In this document: positions 1,369 to 35,078 of the stretch, piece by piece | Layout of the letters: each line of letters begins with the position of its first letter | Numbering within the stretch: position 1 is the stretch's first letter | IMG/VR virus record: IMGVR_UViG_2778261460_000005 | Span: 1 to 37,721 of that record | Reading direction: 5' to 3' (one strand) | Origin: a virus | Taxonomy: Duplodnaviria; Heunggongvirae; Uroviricota; Caudoviricetes | Length of the DNA: 37,721 nt | Position numbers and translations under genes: made by a program | Notes under the pieces: model-generated | The model's input: the letters and a program-made list of their open reading frames with translations, nothing else | Told to the model about the DNA's origin: nothing | Databases searched by the model: none

Positions 1369-1444
1369 GCCGATATAGCTCAGTTGGTAGAGCAGCGCAT
1401 TCGTAATGCGAAGGTCGTAGGTTCGACTCCTATTATCGGCACCA
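1369..1444 (+). tRNA. thrW: tRNA-Thr (anticodon CGU), prophage integration target
   Basis: 76-nt cloverleaf GCCGATATAGCTCAGTTGGTAGAGC...GGTTCGACTCC...CGGCACCA, anticodon loop TTCGTAA; an integrase gene starts 15 bp downstream. Confidence 0.9.
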
Positions 1445-6082: not shown

Positions 6083-6215
6083 TTTTTGGGACTCCTGGCT
6101 GATTAAGTATGTCGATAAGGCGTTTCCATCCGTCACGTAATTTACGGGTGATTCGTTCAAGTAAAGATTCGGAAGGGCAGCCAGCAACAGGCCACCCTGC
6201 AATGGCATATTGCAT
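6051..6215 (-). CDS. cIII: cIII, FtsH inhibitor stabilising cII (54 aa)
   Basis: Hand-translated minus-strand ORF MQYAIAGWPVAGCPSESLLE... from ATG at 6215, not in the ORF track (<60 aa); RBS AAGGAG upstream. Confidence 0.8.
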   Translation of the reverse strand: MQYAIAGWPVAGCPSESLLERITRKLRDGWKRLIDILNQPGVPKNGSNTYGYPD

Positions 6216-6287
6216 GGTGTGCTCCTTATTTATACATAACGAAAAACGCCTCGAGAGAAGCGTTATTGGTATGCGGTAACGCCGCGC

Positions 6288-13445: not shown

Positions 13446-14049
13446 ACCAGCGCGAAGACGATGTAAAAACGATGAATGTCGGGAATGGTTTCACCCTGCA
13501 TTCGCTAATCAGTGGTGGTGCTCTCCAGAGTGTGGAACCAAGATAGCACTCGAACGACGAAGTAAAGAACGCGAAAAAGCGGAAAAAGCAGCAGAGAAGA
13601 AACGACGACGAGAGGAGCAGAAACAGAAAGATAAACTTAAGATTAGAAAACTCGCCTTAAAGCCCCGCAGTTACTGGATTAAACAAGCCCAACAAGCCGT
13701 AAACGCCTTCATCAGAGAAAGAGACCGCGACTTACCATGTATCTCTTGCGGAACGCTCACGTCTGCTCAGTGGGATGCCGGACATTACCGGACAACTGCT
13801 GCGGCACCTCAACTCCGATTTGATGAACGCAATATTCACAAGCAATGCGTGGTGTGCAACCAGCACAAAAGCGGAAATCTCGTTCCGTATCGCGTCGAAC
13901 TGATTAGCCGCATCGGGCAGGAAGCAGTAGACGAAATCGAATCAAACCATAACCGCCATCGCTGGACTGTCGAAGAGTGCAGGGCCATCAAGGCGGAGTA
14001 TCAGCAGAAACTCAAAGACCTGCGAAACAGCAGAAGTGAGGCCGCATGA
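13435..14049 (+). CDS. ninG: NinG (Rap) recombination endonuclease, 204 aa
   Basis: [45 protein letters not shown]... recognised as lambda NinG/Rap. Confidence 0.9.
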
Positions 14050-14092
14050 CGTTCTCAGTAAAAACCATTCCAGATCACAAGGGAGAAGGCGC

Positions 14093-14581
14093 ATGGGCAT
14101 AAGAGAACTAAACCTCACCAAAGAACAGCACGAGTGGCTGAATGGCTGGCTTGAACTGTGGGGCGCATGGGTTTATTCAGGTCGTCTGGAAAAGCGCATG
14201 AGCAGCGTAATAGCTAAGTTCATGGAGAGCGTAGAGCCGGGAAGAGTTATGACAAGGCCAATGTGTAATGATGATGATGGAATGTTGATTTCTCAGGTCG
14301 TCGATTCCGTCATGTACATTGACAAGAAAGCCTTTGGCATCCTCCTCAGCTACTACGCCCACGGCTCTTCCAAGCACGCCATTGCATCTTACTATCATCG
14401 CGTCGCAAGACCTCGCAAGATGTTATGCCGGGGCGGCGGGCGCATTCAAAAACCATCGCTCGCAACCTGTCGACGGGAAGTTGACGAAATCCTCAATGCC
14501 TCGTTGTTTATGATTTACCCGGTTCTGGATGGTGCGTTTAAAAACCGGAAACGTGTAGAGAAAATTAAACATGTAGCATAG
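14093..14581 (+). CDS. Q: Late antiterminator Q, phage 82/QuuD-type (about 162 aa)
   Basis: Motifs LELWGAW and CNDDDGM resemble QuuD/phage-82 Q (LERWGAW, CCDDDAM); start at ATG 14093 with RBS AGGGAGAAGG; not lambda-type Q. Confidence 0.7.
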   Translation: MGIRELNLTKEQHEWLNGWLELWGAWVYSGRLEKRMSSVIAKFMESVEPGRVMTRPMCNDDDGMLISQVVDSVMYIDKKAFGILLSYYAHGSSKHAIASYYHRVARPRKMLCRGGGRIQKPSLATCRREVDEILNASLFMIYPVLDGAFKNRKRVEKIKHVA

Positions 14582-14672: not shown

Positions 14673-14747
14673 GGGTCAGTCGTATAAAGGTCATTACGGA
14701 AGGCTGTTAACCTTCTTATCGTGGTTCGAGTCCACGCTGTCCCGCCA
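14673..14747 (+). tRNA. Phage-encoded tRNA, anticodon GUU (Asn-like)
   Basis: Hand-folded 75-nt cloverleaf: acceptor GGGTCAG/CTGTCCC with one T-T mismatch, anticodon stem GAAGG/CCTTC, loop CTGTTAA, T-arm CGTGG-TTCGAGT-CCACG, 3' GCCA. Confidence 0.45.
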
Positions 14748-14752
14748 AATAT

Positions 14753-14828
14753 GCTGGTTTAGCTCCAATGGTAGAGCGGTCGCCTTGTAAGCGAATGGGT
14801 AGCGGTTCAAGTCCGTTAACCAGCACCA
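14753..14828 (+). tRNA. Phage-encoded tRNA, anticodon UGU (Thr-like)
   Basis: Hand-folded 76-nt cloverleaf: 7-bp acceptor GCTGGTT/AACCAGC, D-arm GCTC-CAATGGTA-GAGC, anticodon loop CTTGTAA, T-arm AGCGG-TTCAAGT-CCGTT, 3' ACCA. Confidence 0.65.
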
Positions 14829-14946: not shown

Positions 14947-15162
14947 ATGAAATCAATGGACAAAATCTCAACTGGCATTGCCTACGGAACATCCGCTGGT
15001 AGTGCGGGATACTGGTTTTTGCAGTGGTTGGATCAGGTCAGTCCATCACAGTGGGCTGCGATTGGGGTGCTTGGAAGCCTTGTGTTGGGCTTTCTCACCT
15101 ATCTGACAAATCTGTACTTCAAAATCAGAGAAGACAGAAGAAAGGCTGCGAGAGGTGAATAA
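14947..15162 (+). CDS. S: Class II holin (pinholin), phage 21 S-like, 71 aa
   Basis: [45 protein letters not shown]... with dual-start Met1/Met4 and two TM segments. Confidence 0.9.
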
Positions 15163-15659
15163 TGCCTCCATCATTACGAAAAGCCGTTGCTGCGGCTATT
15201 GGTGGCGGGGCTATTGCTATAGCATCTGTGTTAATCACTGGCCCAAGTGGTAACGATGGTCTGGAAGGCGTCAGCTACATACCATATAAAGATATCGTTG
15301 GTGTATGGACTGTATGTTACGGGCATACCGGAAAAGACATTATGCTCGGTAAAACGTATACCGAAGCAGAATGCAAAGCCCTCCTGAATAAAGACCTTGC
15401 CACTGTCGCCAGACAAATTAACCCGTACATCAAAGTCGATATACCGGAAACAACGCGCGGCGCTCTTTACTCGTTCGTTTACAACGTTGGTGCTGGAAAT
15501 TTCAGAACATCGACGCTTCTTCGCAAAATAAACCAGGGCGATATCAAAGGCGCATGTGATCAGCTACGGCGCTGGACATACGCTGGCGGTAAGCAATGGA
15601 AAGGGCTGATGACTCGCCGTGAGATTGAGCGTGAAGTCTGTTTGTGGGGGCAACAATGA
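15162..15659 (+). CDS. R: SAR endolysin (T4-lysozyme-like muramidase), 165 aa
   Basis: N-terminal Gly/Ala-rich SAR segment [20 protein letters not shown] followed by catalytic region [22 protein letters not shown]; start overlaps holin stop. Confidence 0.9.
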
Positions 15660-29510: not shown

Positions 29511-29698
29511 CGTTTAACAGCCTGCCGGACGGGCTGTCTTACCTTCTCAATCCGGTTGACGCTGGGTTAATTCCTTATACAGCACTTAAAGATGGCTCTG
29601 TCGATTTGTACGACATTGCTCTCTTGAATGACCATCTGGCGGTAAAAGCGGATAACCAGCGGCGCATTGAGAAATGGAGAGAGGATAATGAACGCTGA
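29058..29698 (+). CDS. Predicted -1 frameshift fusion product of tail assembly chaperone
   Basis: Slippery A_AAT_TTT at 29456-29462; the -1 frame stays open for about 79 codons to TGA at 29696-29698. Confidence 0.45.
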
Positions 29699-31676
29699 AA
29701 CTATTAAAGATTTCCTCGTCTCGCTTGGCTTCAGTGTGGATGATGCAGGAGCGAAAAAGTTCGGTTCTGTCCTCGCCGGTACAACTGCAAATGTCATCAA
29801 AATGGGACTGGCCGTTGAAGGAGCTGCGCTGTCCGTGGTGGCCTTCACGGCTAAGATCGCCTCCGGCCTGGATAATCTTTACTGGGCGTCACAGCGCACC
29901 GGCGCGACAGTCCAGGGAATTCAGTCTATTGGCTATGCGGTTTCGCAGGTTGGCGGCAGCGTGGACGCTGCGCGCGGGTCACTGGAGAGCCTTGCCCGTT
30001 TTATCCGTAATAACCCCGGGGCTGAGGGATTTCTGAATCGTCTGGGGGTACAGACACGGGATGCCAGCGGTAACATGCGTGACATGGCCGCTATTTTTAC
30101 AGGTGTAGGACAGAAGCTCAGCGGCATGCCGTATTACCGGGCTAACCAGTATGCGCAGATGCTGGGCATTGACGAAAATACCCTTATGGCGATGCGCCGG
30201 GGTGTGGGTGGTTTCTCCGGGCAGTACAGCGCAATGGCGAAAGCTATCGGCTTCAATGCTGACGAGGCGGCCAGAAGCTCCAACAAATTTATGACCTCCC
30301 TGCGTGAGTTTAGCGCGATGGCAGGCATGGCCCGTGACAAAATCGGCTCTAATCTTGCGGGTGGGCTTGCGGGTTCGCTGGACACCCTGCGCCGCCATAT
30401 CCTGGACAACTTCCCTCGTATCGAGCAGACCCTGACGAAAGCTATAAAAGGCATTCTGGCGCTCGGGGATATTATCGGGCGGCTGTTCTTCAGACTGATT
30501 GAAGGAACATCAGGCCTCATCACCTGGTGGCAATCGCTGGATAAGCAAACGCGGGAGTTGATCTCGCTGTTTGGTGCACTGACGATTGCGCTGCGCATTC
30601 TGAACAGTACGTTCTGGATGTCGCCGATTGGCCTCATTACCGCGCTGGCGGCGGGTATTGCCCTCCTGTGGGAGGACTATCAGACCTGGAAGGAAGGCGG
30701 CGACAGCCTGATTGACTGGGGCAAGTGGAAACCGGAGGTTGATGCCGCGCTGAAGATGGTTCGTGACCTTAAAACGACCGTTAACGACCTGGTGAAAGCG
30801 CTGGCGAAACTGCTCAATATTGACCCCAAATCATGGTCCCTGAAGTGGGATTTCAGCAACTTCATCGACCAGATGGGCGAATTCAGCAAAATGCTGAACA
30901 TGATCGCCGACCTGCTCAACGCTATCAAAGATGGCCGCTGGGCTGATGCCGTCAGCATCAGCAAACAGATACTTAATCAGGGCAGCGAAAATCCGTCAGC
31001 GATGCCGATGGTTACAGACAGCGCTAACAGTACTGCCGACTGGATTAAAGAGCACTGGGGATTCGATCCCCGCAGTGTGGGCCGGACGGTACGCGGCTGG
31101 TTTGGTGATGATGAGCCGGAACAATATGCACAGGCTACGAAACGAGGAGAACGGAATAACAATCCGGGAAACCTTAATTTTGCTGGTCAGGCAGGGGCTT
31201 CTCTTGAACGCCCGGGCGGGCGATTTGCCAGATTTGAAACTGCTTTTGATGGATTACGGGCTCTTGCTCGTCAGTTAATGCTGTACGCCGGACGGGGAAT
31301 AAACAGTGTGGAGAAAATTATCTCTACCTGGGCACCTGCGTCTGATAATAACAACACAACTGCGTATATCAGGGCTGTATCGCAACGACTGGGAGTGGAT
31401 CCCCGGGCTGCCCTGAATATGAGCGATCCGCAAACCATGTCAGCATTGATGAGCAGCATTATCCAGCATGAAAATGGAAGAAATATCTATTCTCGAGAGC
31501 TGATTAATAAGGCTGCCGTGGCGGGAATTAGTGGCAAAATGACAGAGGTTAACCAGCAAAATACTTACCACATTTACGGTGGCGGAGATCCGCACGCTGT
31601 CGGTAATGAGGTTGCACGTCGGCAACAGTCTGCAAATGCTCAGGTCATGCGAAGTAATCAGGTGAGGGTGGGTTAG
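29688..31676 (+). CDS. Tail tape measure protein (about 662 aa)
   Basis: Long helical/Gly-Ala-rich ORF after chaperone; ATG at 29688 (the track ORF starts at upstream TTG). Confidence 0.85.
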   Translation: MNAETIKDFLVSLGFSVDDAGAKKFGSVLAGTTANVIKMGLAVEGAALSVVAFTAKIASGLDNLYWASQRTGATVQGIQSIGYAVSQVGGSVDAARGSLESLARFIRNNPGAEGFLNRLGVQTRDASGNMRDMAAIFTGVGQKLSGMPYYRANQYAQMLGIDENTLMAMRRGVGGFSGQYSAMAKAIGFNADEAARSSNKFMTSLREFSAMAGMARDKIGSNLAGGLAGSLDTLRRHILDNFPRIEQTLTKAIKGILALGDIIGRLFFRLIEGTSGLITWWQSLDKQTRELISLFGALTIALRILNSTFWMSPIGLITALAAGIALLWEDYQTWKEGGDSLIDWGKWKPEVDAALKMVRDLKTTVNDLVKALAKLLNIDPKSWSLKWDFSNFIDQMGEFSKMLNMIADLLNAIKDGRWADAVSISKQILNQGSENPSAMPMVTDSANSTADWIKEHWGFDPRSVGRTVRGWFGDDEPEQYAQATKRGERNNNPGNLNFAGQAGASLERPGGRFARFETAFDGLRALARQLMLYAGRGINSVEKIISTWAPASDNNNTTAYIRAVSQRLGVDPRAALNMSDPQTMSALMSSIIQHENGRNIYSRELINKAAVAGISGKMTEVNQQNTYHIYGGGDPHAVGNEVARRQQSANAQVMRSNQVRVG

Positions 31677-32567: not shown

Positions 32568-33629
32568 ATGTCACAGAACTGGATGAGACATTTCGAGCTG
32601 CAGCTTGTGGACGGGAACGGTCAGGGAATTGAGCTAAGTGATTTCAAAGTCACCTTTACGATCGACTGGTTCAACATCAGCAGCGCGTCCCGGGTAGGGA
32701 CTATCAAAATTTATAACCTCTCGGCAGATACTGTGAACCGAATCACCGGGCAGGAATTTTCGAAAGTGCGTCTGATTGCCGGTTACGACGGTGTCGCGCC
32801 AGAGGTGTCAGCAAGCGACGTAGGGACCGTGCGGGAAGTTGACGCGGCGGACGTGGGCCAGAGAGATGGCCGCAACTACGGACTGATTTTCAGCGGTGAA
32901 ATTCGCTACTCGGTCACAGGAAAAGACAGTCCGGTTGATACCTACGTCCTGATTCAGGCAGCAGATACTGATCTGGCTTTTGCCACCAGTATAACCTCAC
33001 AGACGCTGGCTGCCGGTTACACGGTCGCTGATGTGAACCGTGCGCTGATGAAAGACTTCGAAGCCAAAGGCGCGACCGAAGGCCTGACGCCTGAAATGCC
33101 TGCTACTGTATTCCCCCGGGGGCGGGTACTCTTTGGCATGACGCGGCATCTTATGGATAACGTAGCCGGTCAATGTGGCGCAACATGGCAATTCGTGGAC
33201 GGTCAACGCCAGATGGTGGCGAATAACGAATATGTTCATGAAGCGATTGTGCTCAACAGCGCTACCGGGCTTATTGGCATGCCGCAGCAGACTATCGGTA
33301 ACGGCGTAAACGTCCGCGCGCTTATTAATCCGAACATCCGGGTTAACGGACTCATTCAGCTGGATCAGGCTTCCGTGTATCGTACCGCCTTGTCGAACAA
33401 CGATATTGCGATGGCTGGTGGGCAGATCACTGACCAGAACACGGACGGAAATATCACGCTTAGCGGCACCACGGCGCAGCCTGCCAGCATCGCAACGGAT
33501 GGCGTTTATATTGTGCGCGGGATTATGTACAGTGGCGATACAAGGGGCCAGGCGTGGTACATGGATATGATGTGCGAAGCGCGTGGCGCGGCGGATCTGT
33601 ATACGCAATCGGCTTTGCAAAGGGGATGA
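32568..33629 (+). CDS. Putative baseplate hub protein (353 aa)
   Basis: Size and position after tape measure block. Confidence 0.5.
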   Translation: MSQNWMRHFELQLVDGNGQGIELSDFKVTFTIDWFNISSASRVGTIKIYNLSADTVNRITGQEFSKVRLIAGYDGVAPEVSASDVGTVREVDAADVGQRDGRNYGLIFSGEIRYSVTGKDSPVDTYVLIQAADTDLAFATSITSQTLAAGYTVADVNRALMKDFEAKGATEGLTPEMPATVFPRGRVLFGMTRHLMDNVAGQCGATWQFVDGQRQMVANNEYVHEAIVLNSATGLIGMPQQTIGNGVNVRALINPNIRVNGLIQLDQASVYRTALSNNDIAMAGGQITDQNTDGNITLSGTTAQPASIATDGVYIVRGIMYSGDTRGQAWYMDMMCEARGAADLYTQSALQRG

Positions 33630-33632
33630 GCA

Positions 33633-33974
33633 ATGAGGGGTATTATTTTTCTGTTAGCTGTCTTTTCTGCGTGCAGCGCGTGGGCGGATGGCTTCACGGT
33701 TAAATGCGGTGGCTACACTATGGTTGCAAACCAGGGCGAGTTATCGACAATCAACGGTGAAAGAGTTACCTCTCAAAAAATCACCGAACTGGGTACCAAT
33801 GGTTTGAAAGTAGACATGGGGCTTATGCCTGCCAAAGACGGTAACAACTACGGCTTTGAATACATTCGTCGCCCTGGTACCGAAACGCGATTCCTGAATG
33901 TCCAACTGCTGCAGAACAGCATGGATGCGCCGAAAATCATCGGTTCCTTTCCATGCAAAAAGATTGTTGATTAA
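33633..33974 (+). CDS. Small secreted protein (113 aa) with N-terminal signal peptide
   Basis: MRGIIFLLAVFSACSAWA-DG: hydrophobic core plus AWA cleavage motif (or lipobox-like FSAC); two Cys in mature part. Confidence 0.6.
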   Translation: MRGIIFLLAVFSACSAWADGFTVKCGGYTMVANQGELSTINGERVTSQKITELGTNGLKVDMGLMPAKDGNNYGFEYIRRPGTETRFLNVQLLQNSMDAPKIIGSFPCKKIVD

Positions 33975-33991
33975 TCACTCGTAATTATAAT
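33964..33991 (+). promoter_or_regulatory. Putative sigma70 promoter (TTGTTG-N16-TATAAT) for the small membrane protein gene
   Basis: Perfect -10 TATAAT at 33986-33991, weak -35 at 33964-33969; RBS AAGGAA before ATG 34028. Confidence 0.45.
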
Positions 33992-34027
33992 GTGGTACTT
34001 CTACTTTCACGATAAGGAATTTGTCGC

Positions 34028-34267
34028 ATGTTCGGATTTGATAAATTAATAACTCCAAAAATCATCAACGTTCTGTATGGCATCACAATGTTACTTCTGG
34101 TTGTTGCCGCCATTATAACGTTTGTTAATGGGAAGGCTGCTGGCGCTTTAGTGCTTTTGTTATGTGCTGTATTTTGCCGAATATTCTTTGAGTGCATCAT
34201 GGTGTCATTTAAAAACAATGAGTATCTTCGCCGAATAGCTGAAGCGTTAGAAGCAAACAAGCAGTAA
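34028..34267 (+). CDS. Small inner-membrane protein (79 aa, two predicted TM helices)
   Basis: Hydrophobic segments INVLYGITMLLLVVAAIITFV and AGALVLLLCAVFCRIFFECIMV; own promoter and terminator. Confidence 0.65.
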   Translation: MFGFDKLITPKIINVLYGITMLLLVVAAIITFVNGKAAGALVLLLCAVFCRIFFECIMVSFKNNEYLRRIAEALEANKQ

Positions 34268-34283
34268 TGAAACTTCAATAATG

Positions 34284-34308
34284 AACCCGCCACCCGCGGG
34301 TTTTTTGC
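34284..34308 (+). terminator. Intrinsic terminator
   Basis: AACCCGC-CACCC-GCGGGTT hairpin followed by TTTTGCTTT. Confidence 0.75.
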
Positions 34309-34325
34309 TTTCTGGAGCCTACTAA

Positions 34326-35078
34326 ATGGCAGTATCTGACCAGACCCGCAGCGGCGACCTTGCCGAAACATTCAAATCTGAACGGGAAACAACAAAGAAC
34401 CAGATCCGTGTCGCCTTGCCTGGCATTGTTCAGTCATTCGATCCCGACGCGGTGACGGCGGTTGTGCAGCCAGCTATCCGTTCGGTTGAAAAGGATAACG
34501 ACGGTAACCGCATTACCAAAAATTACCCGTTGCTGGTGGATGTGCCAGTGGTATTTCCGCGCGGCGGAGGCTGTACGTTGACTTTTCCGGTTAAAGCCGG
34601 GGATGAGTGTCTTGTCGTTTTTGCCGATCGTTGTATTGATTTCTGGTGGCAGAGCGGTGGGATACAGGAGCCGGTCGATGACAGAATGCATGATTTATCG
34701 GATGCGTTTTGTATTGCCGGTCCCCAGTCGCAGGCGAGGAAGATTAGCGGTATTAATACCAGTGCCACACAGTTGCGTAGTGACGACGGCAGCACCTATT
34801 TTGAGCTTAATCCTGATACCCGGAAAATTAAAATTGTCGCCCCGGGTGGTCTTGATGTGGTTGCCCCTCTGGCTGATTTTTCTGAGAAAGTAACCATTCA
34901 TGGCCTGTTAACCTGGATGGGGGGCATGGTGGGGTCTGTTGTTTCTGGTGTGGCTTCAAAAATCACTGGTGCTGTTGAGTTCTTGGGGAGCGTTAAGGCT
35001 AACGGCAAGCCAATCGATGATACGCACACTCATGGCGGTGTTCAGCGCGGTGGAAGCAATACCGATGGGGTAAACTGA
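34326..35078 (+). CDS. Putative baseplate spike protein (gpV-like), 250 aa
   Basis: Position before W/J/I-like baseplate genes; Gly-rich C-terminus. Confidence 0.55.
   Translation: MAVSDQTRSGDLAETFKSERETTKNQIRVALPGIVQSFDPDAVTAVVQPAIRSVEKDNDGNRITKNYPLLVDVPVVFPRGGGCTLTFPVKAGDECLVVFADRCIDFWWQSGGIQEPVDDRMHDLSDAFCIAGPQSQARKISGINTSATQLRSDDGSTYFELNPDTRKIKIVAPGGLDVVAPLADFSEKVTIHGLLTWMGGMVGSVVSGVASKITGAVEFLGSVKANGKPIDDTHTHGGVQRGGSNTDGVN

What the first reader, a model, noticed from the sequence alone, without database searches (positions are those of the whole stretch)
33633..34308. Moron inside the baseplate module: secreted protein plus small two-TM membrane protein with its own promoter and terminator
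Between the baseplate hub-like gene and the spike (gpV-like) gene lie a 113-aa signal-peptide protein and a 79-aa two-helix membrane protein. The latter is preceded by a perfect TATAAT -10 (33986-33991) and RBS, and followed by a strong intrinsic terminator (34284-34308), the classic promoter-gene-terminator moron layout. Small envelope proteins of prophages often mediate superinfection exclusion or alter envelope properties (compare lambda lom/bor, Cor, Sie proteins).
Basis: partly seen in the sequence, partly recalled or inferred. Interest (0 to 1): 0.55.

Follow-up and report, generated by a model that had tools for sequence, protein, structure and literature searches.

The report
Swappable gene slot in prophage baseplate
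Between two tail-tip genes of an E. coli prophage lies a swap-in slot that here holds a small membrane-protein gene of unknown function, probably a block against other phages, next to a conserved exported-protein gene that is part of the phage's own operon.

Summary
The sequence features are real: two ORFs (113 aa with a signal peptide; 79 aa with two TM helices), a TATAAT, an RBS, a hairpin terminator and a GC dip. The reading as one two-gene moron is only half right.

Comparison with about 125 related loci shows the layout hub – exported protein – variable cargo – conserved terminator – spike.

The 113-aa protein is not sporadic. It follows the hub in 102 of 118 slots across many Enterobacterales genera. 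It is translationally coupled to the hub gene and has no promoter of its own. Where it is missing, other exported proteins usually take its place. Its function is unknown.

The terminator is a backbone element shared by all cargo types, not private to the 79-aa gene.

Only the roughly 320-bp AT-rich cassette carrying the 79-aa DUF4282 gene is a true moron. It is one of more than 30 alternative cargoes, which include PD-Lambda-1, PDC-S42, an Mrr nuclease and YafO. It occurs in 83 of 353 E. coli genomes that carry this module.

DUF4282 genes recur beside tape-measure or hub/spike genes in unrelated prophages. This suggests, but does not prove, HK97 gp15/T4 Imm-like superinfection exclusion.

Verdict: a new member of known kinds (moron, prophage hotspot), of moderate interest.

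The parts
32568..33629 (+). Baseplate hub gene, the conserved left flank of the slot. Sequence diversity among close relatives rises sharply from about 33594, the last ~12 codons.
   Evidence: PHROG 196 baseplate hub, E=3.8e-89; Pfam E217_GP41 below cutoff. Diversity profile.
33633..33974 (+). p113: exported 113-aa protein. It has a Sec-type signal peptide (aa 1-18, AWA|DG, plus a lipobox-like VFSAC14), two invariant cysteines (C25, C108) and a predicted eight-stranded beta-barrel. It is a conserved gene of the operon, translationally coupled to the hub gene, and not part of the moron. The 5' two-thirds is multi-allelic; the 3' third is conserved.
33960..34282 (+). The moron cassette proper, about 320 bp at GC 0.37. 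Its left edge lies in or just after the last codons of p113; the 'IVD' codons travel with it on two different p113 alleles. Its right edge is just before the terminator stem.
33964..33991 (+). Sigma-70-like promoter candidate: TTGTTG (33964-33969), 16-nt spacer, TATAAT (33986-33991).
   Evidence: Not listed by the consensus scan. Function not demonstrated.
34014..34018 (+). Ribosome-binding site AAGGA, 9 nt upstream of the p79 start codon.
   Evidence: Read from the sequence.
34028..34267 (+). p79: 79-aa DUF4282 protein. It is a two-helix inner-membrane hairpin, predicted N-in/C-in, with conserved R51 and E55 in TM2 and a conserved cytoplasmic tail FKNNEYLRRIAE.
   Evidence: Pfam PF14110, 42.2 bits against a 27-bit cutoff; PHROG 12129; alignment; AlphaFold2 model; hydropathy.
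34283..34309 (+). Intrinsic-terminator hairpin plus T-run. It is a conserved backbone element directly upstream of the spike RBS, shared by all cargo types and present even in empty slots.
34326..35078 (+). Central spike gene, the conserved right flank of the slot.
   Evidence: Pfam PF18352 E=5.6e-44 plus Apex motif.
14036..14581 (+). Q-type antiterminator gene. It is the inferred reason late transcription can read through the terminator inside the baseplate operon.
   Evidence: Pfam Phage_antitermQ, E=1.2e-24. The read-through itself is inferred from lambdoid biology.
29667..31676 (+). Tape-measure protein with a TM-like hydrophobic segment at aa 315-335. It is a candidate target class for an Imm/gp15-like excluder. 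This is inferred, not shown.

Best explanation
The window is a SEN34-like (Brunovirus-type) E. coli prophage: a contractile-tailed phage with a lambdoid early region.

Anatomy (shown by comparison). Its baseplate operon contains a cargo hotspot laid out as hub, then an exported protein at position 1, then variable cargo, then a conserved terminator, then the spike.
- Position 1 here is p113, a periplasmic beta-barrel protein. It belongs to the operon, is translated together with the hub, and is made with the late genes.
- The variable position here holds a single ~320-bp AT-rich cassette. This is the actual moron. It carries a sigma-70-like promoter and the gene for p79, a 79-aa two-helix DUF4282 inner-membrane protein.
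- The conserved terminator in front of the spike gene stops cargo transcripts in the lysogen, so they do not run into the baseplate genes. During lytic growth, Q-modified polymerase reads through it.
- Conserved sequence on both sides (the p113 3' end and the terminator) lets related prophages exchange cargo by recombination.

Function (inferred). p79 is most likely made from the repressed prophage. It would sit in the inner membrane with both ends in the cytoplasm and block genome entry of incoming phages at the step where the tape-measure/tail-tip complex opens a channel. HK97 gp15 and T4 Imm work this way. p113 is most likely an envelope-directed accessory factor of the phage, an Sp/Llp-style entry or receptor blocker made late. 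This last point is the weakest.
For: Anatomy:
- Slot catalogue of 118 related loci. The p113 family occupies 102. More than 30 unrelated cargo clusters lie downstream of it. Seven loci have p113 only, and three are empty.
- The terminator is conserved with every cargo type and in empty slots.
- The left boundary falls at the p113 stop codon.
- Diversity jumps at 33594 and falls again in the p113 3' end.
- Known defence genes occupy the same slot in relatives: PD-Lambda-1 (E=2.8e-82), PDC-S42 (E=1.7e-36), Mrr_cat and YafO.
- A Q antiterminator is present.
- The layout fits the published definition of prophage hotspots: small loci of about 1-5 kb with high turnover, between two conserved genes (PMC9122126).

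p79 as a moron:
- Gene GC is 0.38 against 0.52-0.55 in the flanking genes.
- TATAAT is rare in the window.
- Across 11 DUF4282 lineages, promoter-like scores exceed those of 103 control ORF starts (mean 8.7 against 6.9; Mann-Whitney p=9e-7). The -10 lies 35-44 nt upstream of the start codon in 8 of 11.
- A terminator follows the gene in every locus whose downstream flank was examined (nine DUF4282 lineages).
- The cassette occurs on two p113 alleles and two spike alleles.

p79 function:
- Of 11 lineages, 4 place the gene between hub and spike (E. coli, Pectobacterium, Erwinia, Hafnia).
- Another 4 place it directly after the tape-measure gene. These represent three unrelated tail modules (Klebsiella, Edwardsiella phage GF-2, Salmonella L146/L152).
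- HK97 gp15 is a small inner-membrane moron product next to the tape-measure gene, and its exclusion depends on the incoming phage's tail region (PMC3594210).
- T4 Imm, an 83-aa membrane protein, binds the tape-measure protein (preprint 10.64898/2026.03.06.709160).
- The window's tape measure has a TM-like segment.

p113:
- A signal peptide and two invariant cysteines occur in all alleles.
- The model is a confident beta-barrel.
- When p113 is absent it is replaced by non-homologous lipoproteins or secreted proteins, so position 1 is an exported protein in 112 of 118 slots.
- It has six allele clusters on a monomorphic baseplate background.
Against: - No experiment bears on expression or function.
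- The promoter has a weak -35 and is not significant on its own: 13% of shuffles score as well. The between-gene comparison is partly driven by AT-richness.
- p79 and p113 match no PADLOC defence model.
- p79 has no sequence similarity to HK97 gp15 and no Pfam match to the T4 Imm or YebO families.
- The predicted periplasmic loop of p79 is only about 4-6 residues, which leaves little surface to contact an incoming tail from outside.
- Two DUF4282 lineages are chromosomal with no phage context, so a housekeeping role is possible.
- Tail operons are large, so some adjacency to tail genes is expected by chance. Only about five independent prophage placements were sampled.
- For p113, no covariation with spike or fibre alleles was found, and the fold match is generic.
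Confidence: 0.6

Rival explanations
1. One reading: p113 and p79 together form one two-gene moron, a secreted protein plus a membrane partner, with a private promoter and terminator, acting as a unit on the envelope.
For: The two genes are adjacent and both are envelope-targeted. The same pair also occurs in Pectobacterium and Erwinia prophages. Both genes have lower GC than their flanks, though p113 only slightly (0.47).
Against: p113 is present in 102 of 118 slots, mostly without p79. p79 occurs with two p113 alleles, without p113 (Hafnia), and in unrelated contexts. The promoter lies between the two genes, so it serves p79 only. The terminator is a shared backbone element.
Confidence: 0.05
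2. p79 is not anti-phage. It is a small inner-membrane regulator or stress protein, in the manner of the small membrane proteins that modulate transporters or sensors. It would have been picked up from the host chromosome and would benefit the lysogen physiologically.
For: Close homologues (62-67% identity) sit at ordinary chromosomal sites with no phage genes within 5 kb (L144, L150). The most conserved parts are the cytoplasmic ends and the charged residues in TM2, which suits binding to a host membrane protein. HK97 gp15 likewise has chromosomal YebO relatives (PMC3594210). No defence-model match.
Against: 8 of 11 lineages are in prophage tail modules next to tape-measure or hub/spike genes. 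The slot otherwise carries defence and toxin cargo.
Confidence: 0.2
3. p79 is a membrane-disrupting effector: a class II holin/antiholin-like protein or an abortive-infection pore that depolarises the membrane on infection.
For: Two TM helices, predicted N-in/C-in topology and a charged C-terminal tail resemble class II holins. In Pantoea prophages the gene lies just downstream of the lysis cassette. In Salmonella L146 and in L152 it is three genes upstream of holin-lysozyme genes. Charged R51 and E55 lie inside TM2.
Against: There is no Pfam holin match. The phage has its own lysis region elsewhere (lysozyme at 15162-15659). Constitutive expression of a pore former from a sigma-70 promoter would be toxic. 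No partner sensor gene lies in the 320-bp cassette. No antisense RNA family was detected.
Confidence: 0.1
4. p113 is a virion assembly or structural component of the baseplate, and its hydrophobic N-terminus is not an export signal.
For: It keeps a strictly conserved position between hub and spike across genera, is translationally coupled to the hub gene, and has no promoter of its own.
Against: It has canonical n-h-c signal-peptide architecture with AxA in every allele, plus two invariant cysteines suited to a periplasmic disulfide. It is absent from some otherwise complete modules (L118, L124, L128, L143). Elsewhere it is replaced by non-homologous lipoproteins or secreted proteins. Six alleles sit on a monomorphic baseplate background, which is not expected of a tightly packed structural subunit. 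It has no structural match to viral proteins.
Confidence: 0.1

Closest known systems
HK97 gene 15 moron (gp15 superinfection exclusion protein; Juhala 2000, Cumby 2012, reviewed in PMC3594210)
   Same: A small gene plus terminator is inserted between conserved genes of a tail operon, close to the tape-measure gene. Its composition is atypical. The product is a small inner-membrane protein. Chromosomal homologues exist. Exclusion acts at DNA entry and depends on the incoming phage's tail region.
   Different: No sequence similarity. gp15 is 62 aa, described only as inserting into the inner membrane, and YebO-related, whereas p79 is 79 aa with two TM helices and belongs to DUF4282. p79 sits between hub and spike rather than between the chaperone and tape-measure genes. 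The function of p79 is untested.
T4 Imm (with Sp/Spackle)
   Same: Imm is a small (83-aa) phage-encoded inner-membrane protein that blocks genome translocation. It is now reported to bind the tape-measure protein (preprint 10.64898/2026.03.06.709160). The T4 pair of a membrane protein (Imm) and a protein that modulates the tail lysozyme (Sp; its periplasmic location is from my own knowledge, not a retrieved source) (PMC11436027) parallels p79 plus p113 in where the products go.
   Different: p79 has no Pfam match to the Imm family. Imm has a multi-helix core with its N-terminus in the periplasm, whereas p79 is a predicted two-helix N-in/C-in hairpin. T4 is virulent and makes Imm and Sp early. 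p113 is a beta-barrel, whereas Spackle is helical (from my own knowledge). The distribution data show p79 and p113 are not an obligate pair.
[quoted passage not shown] 2022, PMC9122126)
   Same: A small locus of high gene turnover lies between two conserved phage genes. It carries diverse known and candidate anti-phage systems and exchanges them among close relatives (here).
   Different: The phage family is different (SEN34-like lambdoid myophages). The location is also different: inside the late baseplate operon, between hub and spike, rather than near cos. This slot has a fixed exported-protein gene at its first position and a conserved terminator at its end.
T5 Llp and phi80/N15 Cor (receptor-blocking lipoproteins encoded beside tail genes)
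   Same: These are phage-encoded, envelope-exported small proteins encoded in or beside the tail module, and they protect against superinfection (Cor: PMC3594210, PMC11436027). 39 of 102 p113 alleles, and the alternative C7 proteins, carry lipobox-like motifs.
   Different: There is no sequence relationship. Most p113 alleles lack a lipobox. p113 alleles show no association with tail-fibre alleles (AMI 0.05). No receptor is known.
MliC/PliC periplasmic lysozyme inhibitors and other small periplasmic beta-barrel inhibitor or immunity proteins

Membership tests
Moron (as defined for HK97/HK022; PMC3594210) | Extra DNA between two genes that are adjacent in related phages | tested here: met
   For p79: relatives have p113 directly abutting the spike gene (L112, L115-117, L120, L121), p113 plus the terminator only (L126), or other cargo. 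For p113: only weakly met, since it is present in 102 of 118 slots and absent in a few.
Moron (as defined for HK97/HK022; PMC3594210) | Base composition different from the surrounding genes | tested here: met
   Cassette GC is 0.367 and p79 is 0.379, against hub 0.545, spike 0.519 and the whole window 0.497. p113 is 0.471.
Moron (as defined for HK97/HK022; PMC3594210) | Own promoter | tested here: inconclusive
   TTGTTG-16-TATAAT scores 9 of 12 and is not significant alone (13% of shuffles). It is supported by the rarity of TATAAT in the window and by a consistent -10 at -35 to -44 in 8 of 11 DUF4282 lineages. No promoter-like site was seen for p113.
Moron (as defined for HK97/HK022; PMC3594210) | Own terminator | tested here: inconclusive
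   A good intrinsic terminator follows p79, but it is a backbone element shared by all cargo types and by empty slots. DUF4282 genes in other contexts are each followed by a terminator.
Moron (as defined for HK97/HK022; PMC3594210) | Expressed from the repressed prophage | not testable with these tools
   Needs RNA-seq, 5'-RACE or a reporter in a lysogen.
Pfam DUF4282 (PF14110) | Score above the curated gathering threshold | tested here: met
   p79 scores 42.2 bits against a 27-bit cutoff, E=1.2e-10, covering residues 2-71. 86 of 87 homologues carry the same precomputed domain.
T4 Imm superinfection immunity family | Sequence membership (Pfam Imm family) | tested here: not met
   The Pfam scan at E<=0.1 returned only DUF4282 and a sub-threshold YbhQ hit.
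T4 Imm superinfection immunity family | Binds the tape-measure protein and blocks genome translocation | not testable with these tools
HK97 gp15 / YebO family | Sequence similarity to gp15/YebO | tested here: not met
   BLASTP found no alignment at E<=100, and there was no Pfam YebO hit.
Class II holins | Two TM domains, N-in/C-in, charged C-terminus, encoded in a lysis cassette | tested here: inconclusive
   The topology features are present. There is no holin Pfam hit, and in this window the gene is not in the lysis region.
Prophage defence hotspot (Rousset et al. 2022) | Small locus with high gene turnover between two conserved phage genes | tested here: met
   The gap ranges from 85 to 2160 bp. 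More than 30 cargo clusters lie between hub/p113 and spike on a background where hub is 96-99% identical.
Prophage defence hotspot (Rousset et al. 2022) | Carries known anti-phage systems in some members | tested here: met
   PD-Lambda-1 (L110), PDC-S42 (L109), an Mrr-type nuclease (L101), YafO toxin, and a weak HEPN hit.
Known defence proteins (PADLOC-DB v2) | p79 or p113 matches a defence-system model | tested here: not met
   No families at E<=0.01 for either protein.
Llp/Cor-type receptor-blocking lipoproteins (for p113) | Lipoprotein signal (lipobox) | tested here: inconclusive
   A lipobox-like motif occurs in 39 of 102 alleles, including the window's VFSAC14. The rest have only AxA signal-peptidase I sites. 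This is a crude motif test.
Llp/Cor-type receptor-blocking lipoproteins (for p113) | Co-variation with the receptor-binding protein | tested here: not met
   AMI between p113 and fibre alleles is 0.05 (n=40). Power is low because the fibre is hypervariable. There is also no tracking of spike alleles.
MliC/PliC lysozyme inhibitors (for p113) | Sequence family membership or a specific fold match | tested here: not met
Virion structural protein (for p113 and p79) | Always present in related modules and detected in particles | tested here: inconclusive
   p79 is clearly sporadic, so the feature is not met. p113 is nearly always present, but it is exported, absent from some modules and replaceable by other exported proteins. 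The SEN34 paper reports no virion proteomics.

The most novel reading that the evidence does not exclude
DUF4282 two-helix membrane proteins are a widespread, undescribed family of prophage superinfection-exclusion proteins that act on the tape-measure/tail-tip channel. They would be functional analogues of T4 Imm and HK97 gp15, repeatedly captured next to tape-measure or hub/spike genes. In addition, the first position of this hotspot (p113 or its lipoprotein or secreted substitutes) would be a second, periplasmic layer of entry blocking. That layer would be hard-wired into a myophage baseplate operon and diversify by allele replacement.
Probability: 0.3. Interest if true: 0.6.

Novelty: new member of a known kind. 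Interest (0 to 1): 0.42.

Why it matters
If the readings hold, three things follow.

1. SEN34-like prophages are present in about 6.5% of complete E. coli genomes (353 of 5,426) and in many other Enterobacterales. They offer a compact, easily recognised hotspot with conserved anchors on both sides. It could be mined for new anti-phage genes, as the P2/P4 hotspots were. The commonest cargo, the two-gene C1+C2 cassette, is uncharacterised.

2. DUF4282, a domain with no literature in the searched library, gains a testable function and a candidate target class (the tape measure).

3. A baseplate operon that keeps an exported, multi-allelic protein gene between hub and spike is an unexplained design. 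It may reveal how temperate myophages manage the envelope during or after infection.

None of this overturns current concepts. It extends them.

Tried and rejected
- The afdb50 fold library was unavailable.
- A BFVD fold search gave no significant match for p113.
- PDB sequence-profile searches of both families gave nothing below E=0.08.
- NCBIfam and PADLOC gave no hits for p113 or p79.
- A literature search for DUF4282 returned 0 papers. Searches on SEN34, Brunovirus and Wanchaivirus found no description of this slot.
- Rfam found no RNA family in the slot, so a type I toxin/antisense RNA system is not supported.
- The 128-aa antisense ORF (33985-34371, minus strand) has no family hit and was judged spurious. 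My greedy ORF picker had wrongly preferred it to p79 in the cargo clustering, as cluster C3.
- The test for p113 allele association with spike, wedge, tape-measure C-terminus or fibre alleles gave no signal beyond linkage to the adjacent cargo.
- The exhaustive profile search for p113 found a narrow family (72 representative clusters). It also gave weak multi-stretch hits to Listeria-Bacteroides repeat surface proteins, judged uninformative.
- The alternative position-1 proteins C7 and C10 have no Pfam or PHROG family.
- I looked for a promoter for p113 inside the hub 3' end. None was listed by the scan, and none was evident on reading the sequence.
Full report
**1. What is in the sequence**

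- The two ORFs exist as described: 33633-33974 (113 aa, here called p113) and 34028-34267 (79 aa, p79), both on the + strand. NCBI's pipeline calls the same two genes in E. coli chromosomes that are 100% identical over the region.
- The upstream gene (32568-33629) is a baseplate hub (PHROG 196, E=3.8e-89). The downstream gene (34326-35078) is a central spike with an N-terminal spike domain (E=5.6e-44) and an Apex motif.
- The perfect TATAAT is at 33986-33991, an AAGGA ribosome-binding site is at 34014-34018, and a hairpin plus T-run is at 34283-34309.
- GC drops to 0.37-0.38 in 33975-34282, against 0.52-0.55 in the flanking genes.
- p113 has a basic residue, a hydrophobic core and an AWA|DG cleavage motif. 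p79 has two hydrophobic helices and folds as a helical hairpin in AlphaFold2 (mean pLDDT 87.4).
The best -35 is only TTGTTG, and the site was not listed by the consensus scan; 13% of shuffles of the same AT-rich 100 nt score as well. And the terminator turns out not to belong to this gene.

**2. What the element is**

- The window is an E. coli prophage related to Salmonella phage SEN34 (Brunovirus), Yersinia phage YP3 and several vB_EcoM phages.
- It has an integrase next to a tRNA-Thr gene, an S24-type repressor, NinG, a Q antiterminator and a lysozyme. It also has a contractile-tail module of sheath, tube, chaperone, tape measure, Dit-like protein, plug, hub, spike and wedge genes. SEN34 was described as lambda-related in genome but a myovirus in shape (PMC5261728).

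**3. Comparison with relatives**

- I anchored on the hub protein and collected about 125 loci from IMG/VR, GTDB genomes and GenBank phages. I measured the hub-to-spike gap in each, then clustered the ORFs found in it.
- **Position 1.** A p113 homologue lies immediately after the hub in 102 of 118 usable slots.
  - This includes Serratia, Rahnella, Pantoea and Acerihabitans relatives with only 50-60% hub identity. There the gap is about 360 bp and p113 directly abuts the spike gene (L112, L115-117, L120, L121).
  - p113 homologues chosen without reference to the hub sit in the same place, with the start codon overlapping the hub stop codon. These were Klebsiella P0321, Yersinia P0288, and Klebsiella phages at 27% identity.
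- **Variable cargo.** Downstream of p113 the content varies freely. More than 30 unrelated gene clusters occur, and the gap ranges from 85 to 2160 bp.
- **Terminator.** The hairpin AACCCGCC-loop-GGCGGGTTTTTTGCTTTCTGGAGCC...ATG in front of the spike gene is conserved with every cargo type. It is present even in the three loci that carry neither p113 nor cargo (L118, L124, L128).
- **Boundaries.** Cargo identity changes right after the p113 stop codon. In E. coli genomes with other cargo, homology to the window resumes at 34277-34284, the foot of the terminator.
- **Diversity.** Among close relatives, pairwise difference is 0.01-0.09 in the hub. It jumps to 0.33-0.48 from 33594 through the first two-thirds of p113, then falls to 0.09-0.14 in the p113 3' end.

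**4. The slot is an accessory and defence hotspot**

- Cargo in relatives includes PD-Lambda-1 (E=2.8e-82), PDC-S42 (E=1.7e-36), an Mrr-type nuclease and a YafO toxin. There is also a DUF2335 membrane protein and a very common two-gene cassette, C1+C2, of unknown function (C2 has a weak HEPN hit).
- This matches the published description of prophage hotspots: small, high-turnover loci between two conserved genes (PMC9122126).
- I found no paper describing this particular slot.

**5. p79 is the moron**

- It is present in 16 of the loci, and in 83 of the 353 complete E. coli genomes that carry the module.
- It rides on two different p113 alleles (window versus L049/L058) and on two spike alleles.
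- The codons 'IVD' at the end of p113 overlap the -35 element. They travel with p79 on both p113 alleles, though L052 carries the same codons with a different cargo.
- p79 belongs to Pfam DUF4282 (42.2 bits against a 27-bit cutoff). The searched literature has no paper on this domain.
- Its 87 detected homologues are all enterobacterial. The conserved parts are the N-terminal FDKLITPKI motif, R51 and E55 in TM2, and the cytoplasmic tail FKNNEYLRRIAE.

**6. Where DUF4282 genes sit elsewhere** (11 lineages)

| Placement | Lineages |
|---|---|
| Between hub and spike | E. coli, Pectobacterium, Erwinia, Hafnia (Hafnia without p113) |
| Directly after the tape-measure gene | Klebsiella siphovirus-like prophages, Edwardsiella phage GF-2, Salmonella L146, L152 |
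| After a lysis cassette | Pantoea |
| Chromosomal, no phage context | L144, L150 |

- The four tape-measure placements represent three unrelated tail modules.
- In all five cases where GC was computed, the gene is AT-rich relative to its flanks. In every locus whose downstream flank was examined, a terminator follows it.
- Promoter-like scores upstream are higher than at 103 control ORF starts (Mann-Whitney p=9e-7). The -10 falls 35-44 nt before the start codon in 8 of 11 lineages. AT-richness contributes to this.

**7. Likely mechanism for p79** (inferred)

- HK97 gp15, the founding moron, is a small inner-membrane protein encoded beside the tape-measure gene. It excludes phages at DNA entry, and the effect depends on their tail region (PMC3594210).
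- T4 Imm, an 83-aa membrane protein, is reported to bind the tape-measure protein and prevent channel formation (preprint 10.64898/2026.03.06.709160).
- p79 has no sequence similarity to either. It does share their size class, membrane location and genomic neighbourhood. The window's tape measure has a TM-like segment at aa 315-335.
- I therefore favour superinfection exclusion at the inner-membrane step, with roughly 40% confidence for that specific function.
- The alternatives are a host-physiology role, supported by the chromosomal homologues, and a holin-like or abortive pore, supported only by topology.

**8. p113**

- It is exported. A signal peptide occurs in all 74 distinct sequences, and two cysteines are invariant.
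- It is predicted with confidence (pLDDT 86.8) to be an eight-stranded up-and-down beta-barrel.
- The family is narrow, with 72 representative clusters among 1.84 billion proteins.
- It forms six allele clusters on a background where Dit, plug, hub, spike, W and J are each monomorphic. Its alleles do not track spike or fibre alleles.
- When p113 is absent, the same position holds non-homologous lipoproteins (C7) or signal-peptide proteins (C10). Position 1 is therefore an exported protein in 112 of 118 slots.
- A few complete modules lack it, so it is probably not essential.
- These facts argue against a structural role. They favour an envelope-directed accessory function made with the late genes, but which function remains open.

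**9. How the terminator fits** (inferred)

- In the lysogen it would stop cargo transcripts before the spike and wedge genes.
- In lytic growth the Q-modified polymerase of this lambdoid phage would read through it.
- Together with the conserved p113 3' end, it provides homology arms for cargo exchange.

**10. Verdict**

- The region is a hotspot with a fixed exported-protein gene, one swappable moron (p79) and a shared terminator. It is a new member of known kinds.
- Two aspects are not previously described in the literature I could search: the recurrent placement of DUF4282 genes next to tape-measure and tail-tip genes, and the exported-protein 'position 1' inside a baseplate operon.

Noticed in passing
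L050, L076, L079, L084, L102, L103 (C7); L040, L056, L070, L075 (C10); position right after the hub gene: Where p113 is absent, the first gene after the hub is a non-homologous lipoprotein (C7, 241-379 aa) or a Sec-signal protein (C10, 153-180 aa). Position 1 of the slot is thus an exported protein in 112 of 118 loci. Neither C7 nor C10 has a Pfam or PHROG family.
   Followed up: partly
e.g. L011 5400-6720, L010 5443-6650; about 35 of the related loci: The commonest cargo in the slot is a two-gene cassette: C1 (243-266 aa, phrog_17809) plus C2 (123-142 aa, phrog_5176, weak HEPN_IX hit). It is an uncharacterised candidate defence system.
   Followed up: partly
window 34283-34309 and the equivalent site in nearly all related loci: The terminator hairpin before the spike gene is conserved even in loci with no cargo and no p113 (L118, L124, L128). 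The loop varies while the stem is kept. Why an empty slot keeps a terminator inside a late operon is unexplained.
   Followed up: partly
L132 6244-6288 compared with L125 5730-5776: In Klebsiella prophages whose tail genes are unrelated to the window's, the terminator-plus-RBS stretch after the DUF4282 gene is nearly identical to the pre-spike element of a Pantoea relative of this module. The stretch is AAACCCGCTCCGGCGGGTTTTTTATGCCCGGAGGAAAC. This suggests the cassette end moves with the gene.
   Followed up: partly
window 1369-1444 and 1459-2622: A tRNA-Thr(cgt) gene lies directly next to the integrase gene. It is the likely integration site at the prophage end.
   Followed up: no
window 14673-14828: Two phage-borne tRNA genes (Asn-gtt, Thr-tgt) lie immediately downstream of the Q antiterminator gene and upstream of the lysis genes.
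   Followed up: no
window 6170-6228 (- strand): There is a strong Rfam match to the lambda CIII thermoregulator element (88.5 bits), which confirms a lambdoid early region in a contractile-tailed phage.
   Followed up: no
whole window; 33984-34117: The hexamer TATAAT is depleted in the window (5 copies against about 13 expected from shuffles). Three of the five copies lie within the p79 cassette.
   Followed up: yes
window 33985-34371 (- strand): A 128-aa antisense ORF overlaps the whole p79 gene. It has no Pfam match and is conserved only because the DNA is identical, so it is most likely spurious.
   Followed up: yes
L146/L147 and L152: In Salmonella L146/L147 and the unassigned metagenome-derived contig L152, the tail cluster runs sheath - tube - chaperone - tape measure - DUF4282 - Dit - plug, then goes straight into holin - lysozyme - DUF2514. 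There are no hub, spike or wedge genes. This is a truncated or rearranged tail module.
   Followed up: no
L130 (Edwardsiella phage GF-2) 5001-7316: In GF-2 the DUF4282 gene after the tape-measure gene is followed by a reverse-strand pair and an Arc/Ant-type antirepressor region inserted in the tail module, resembling the P22 immI region.
   Followed up: no
window 33633-33686: The window's p113 allele carries a lipobox-like VFSAC14 as well as the AWA|DG signal-peptidase I site. For this allele it is unclear whether the protein is lipidated or soluble.
   Followed up: partly
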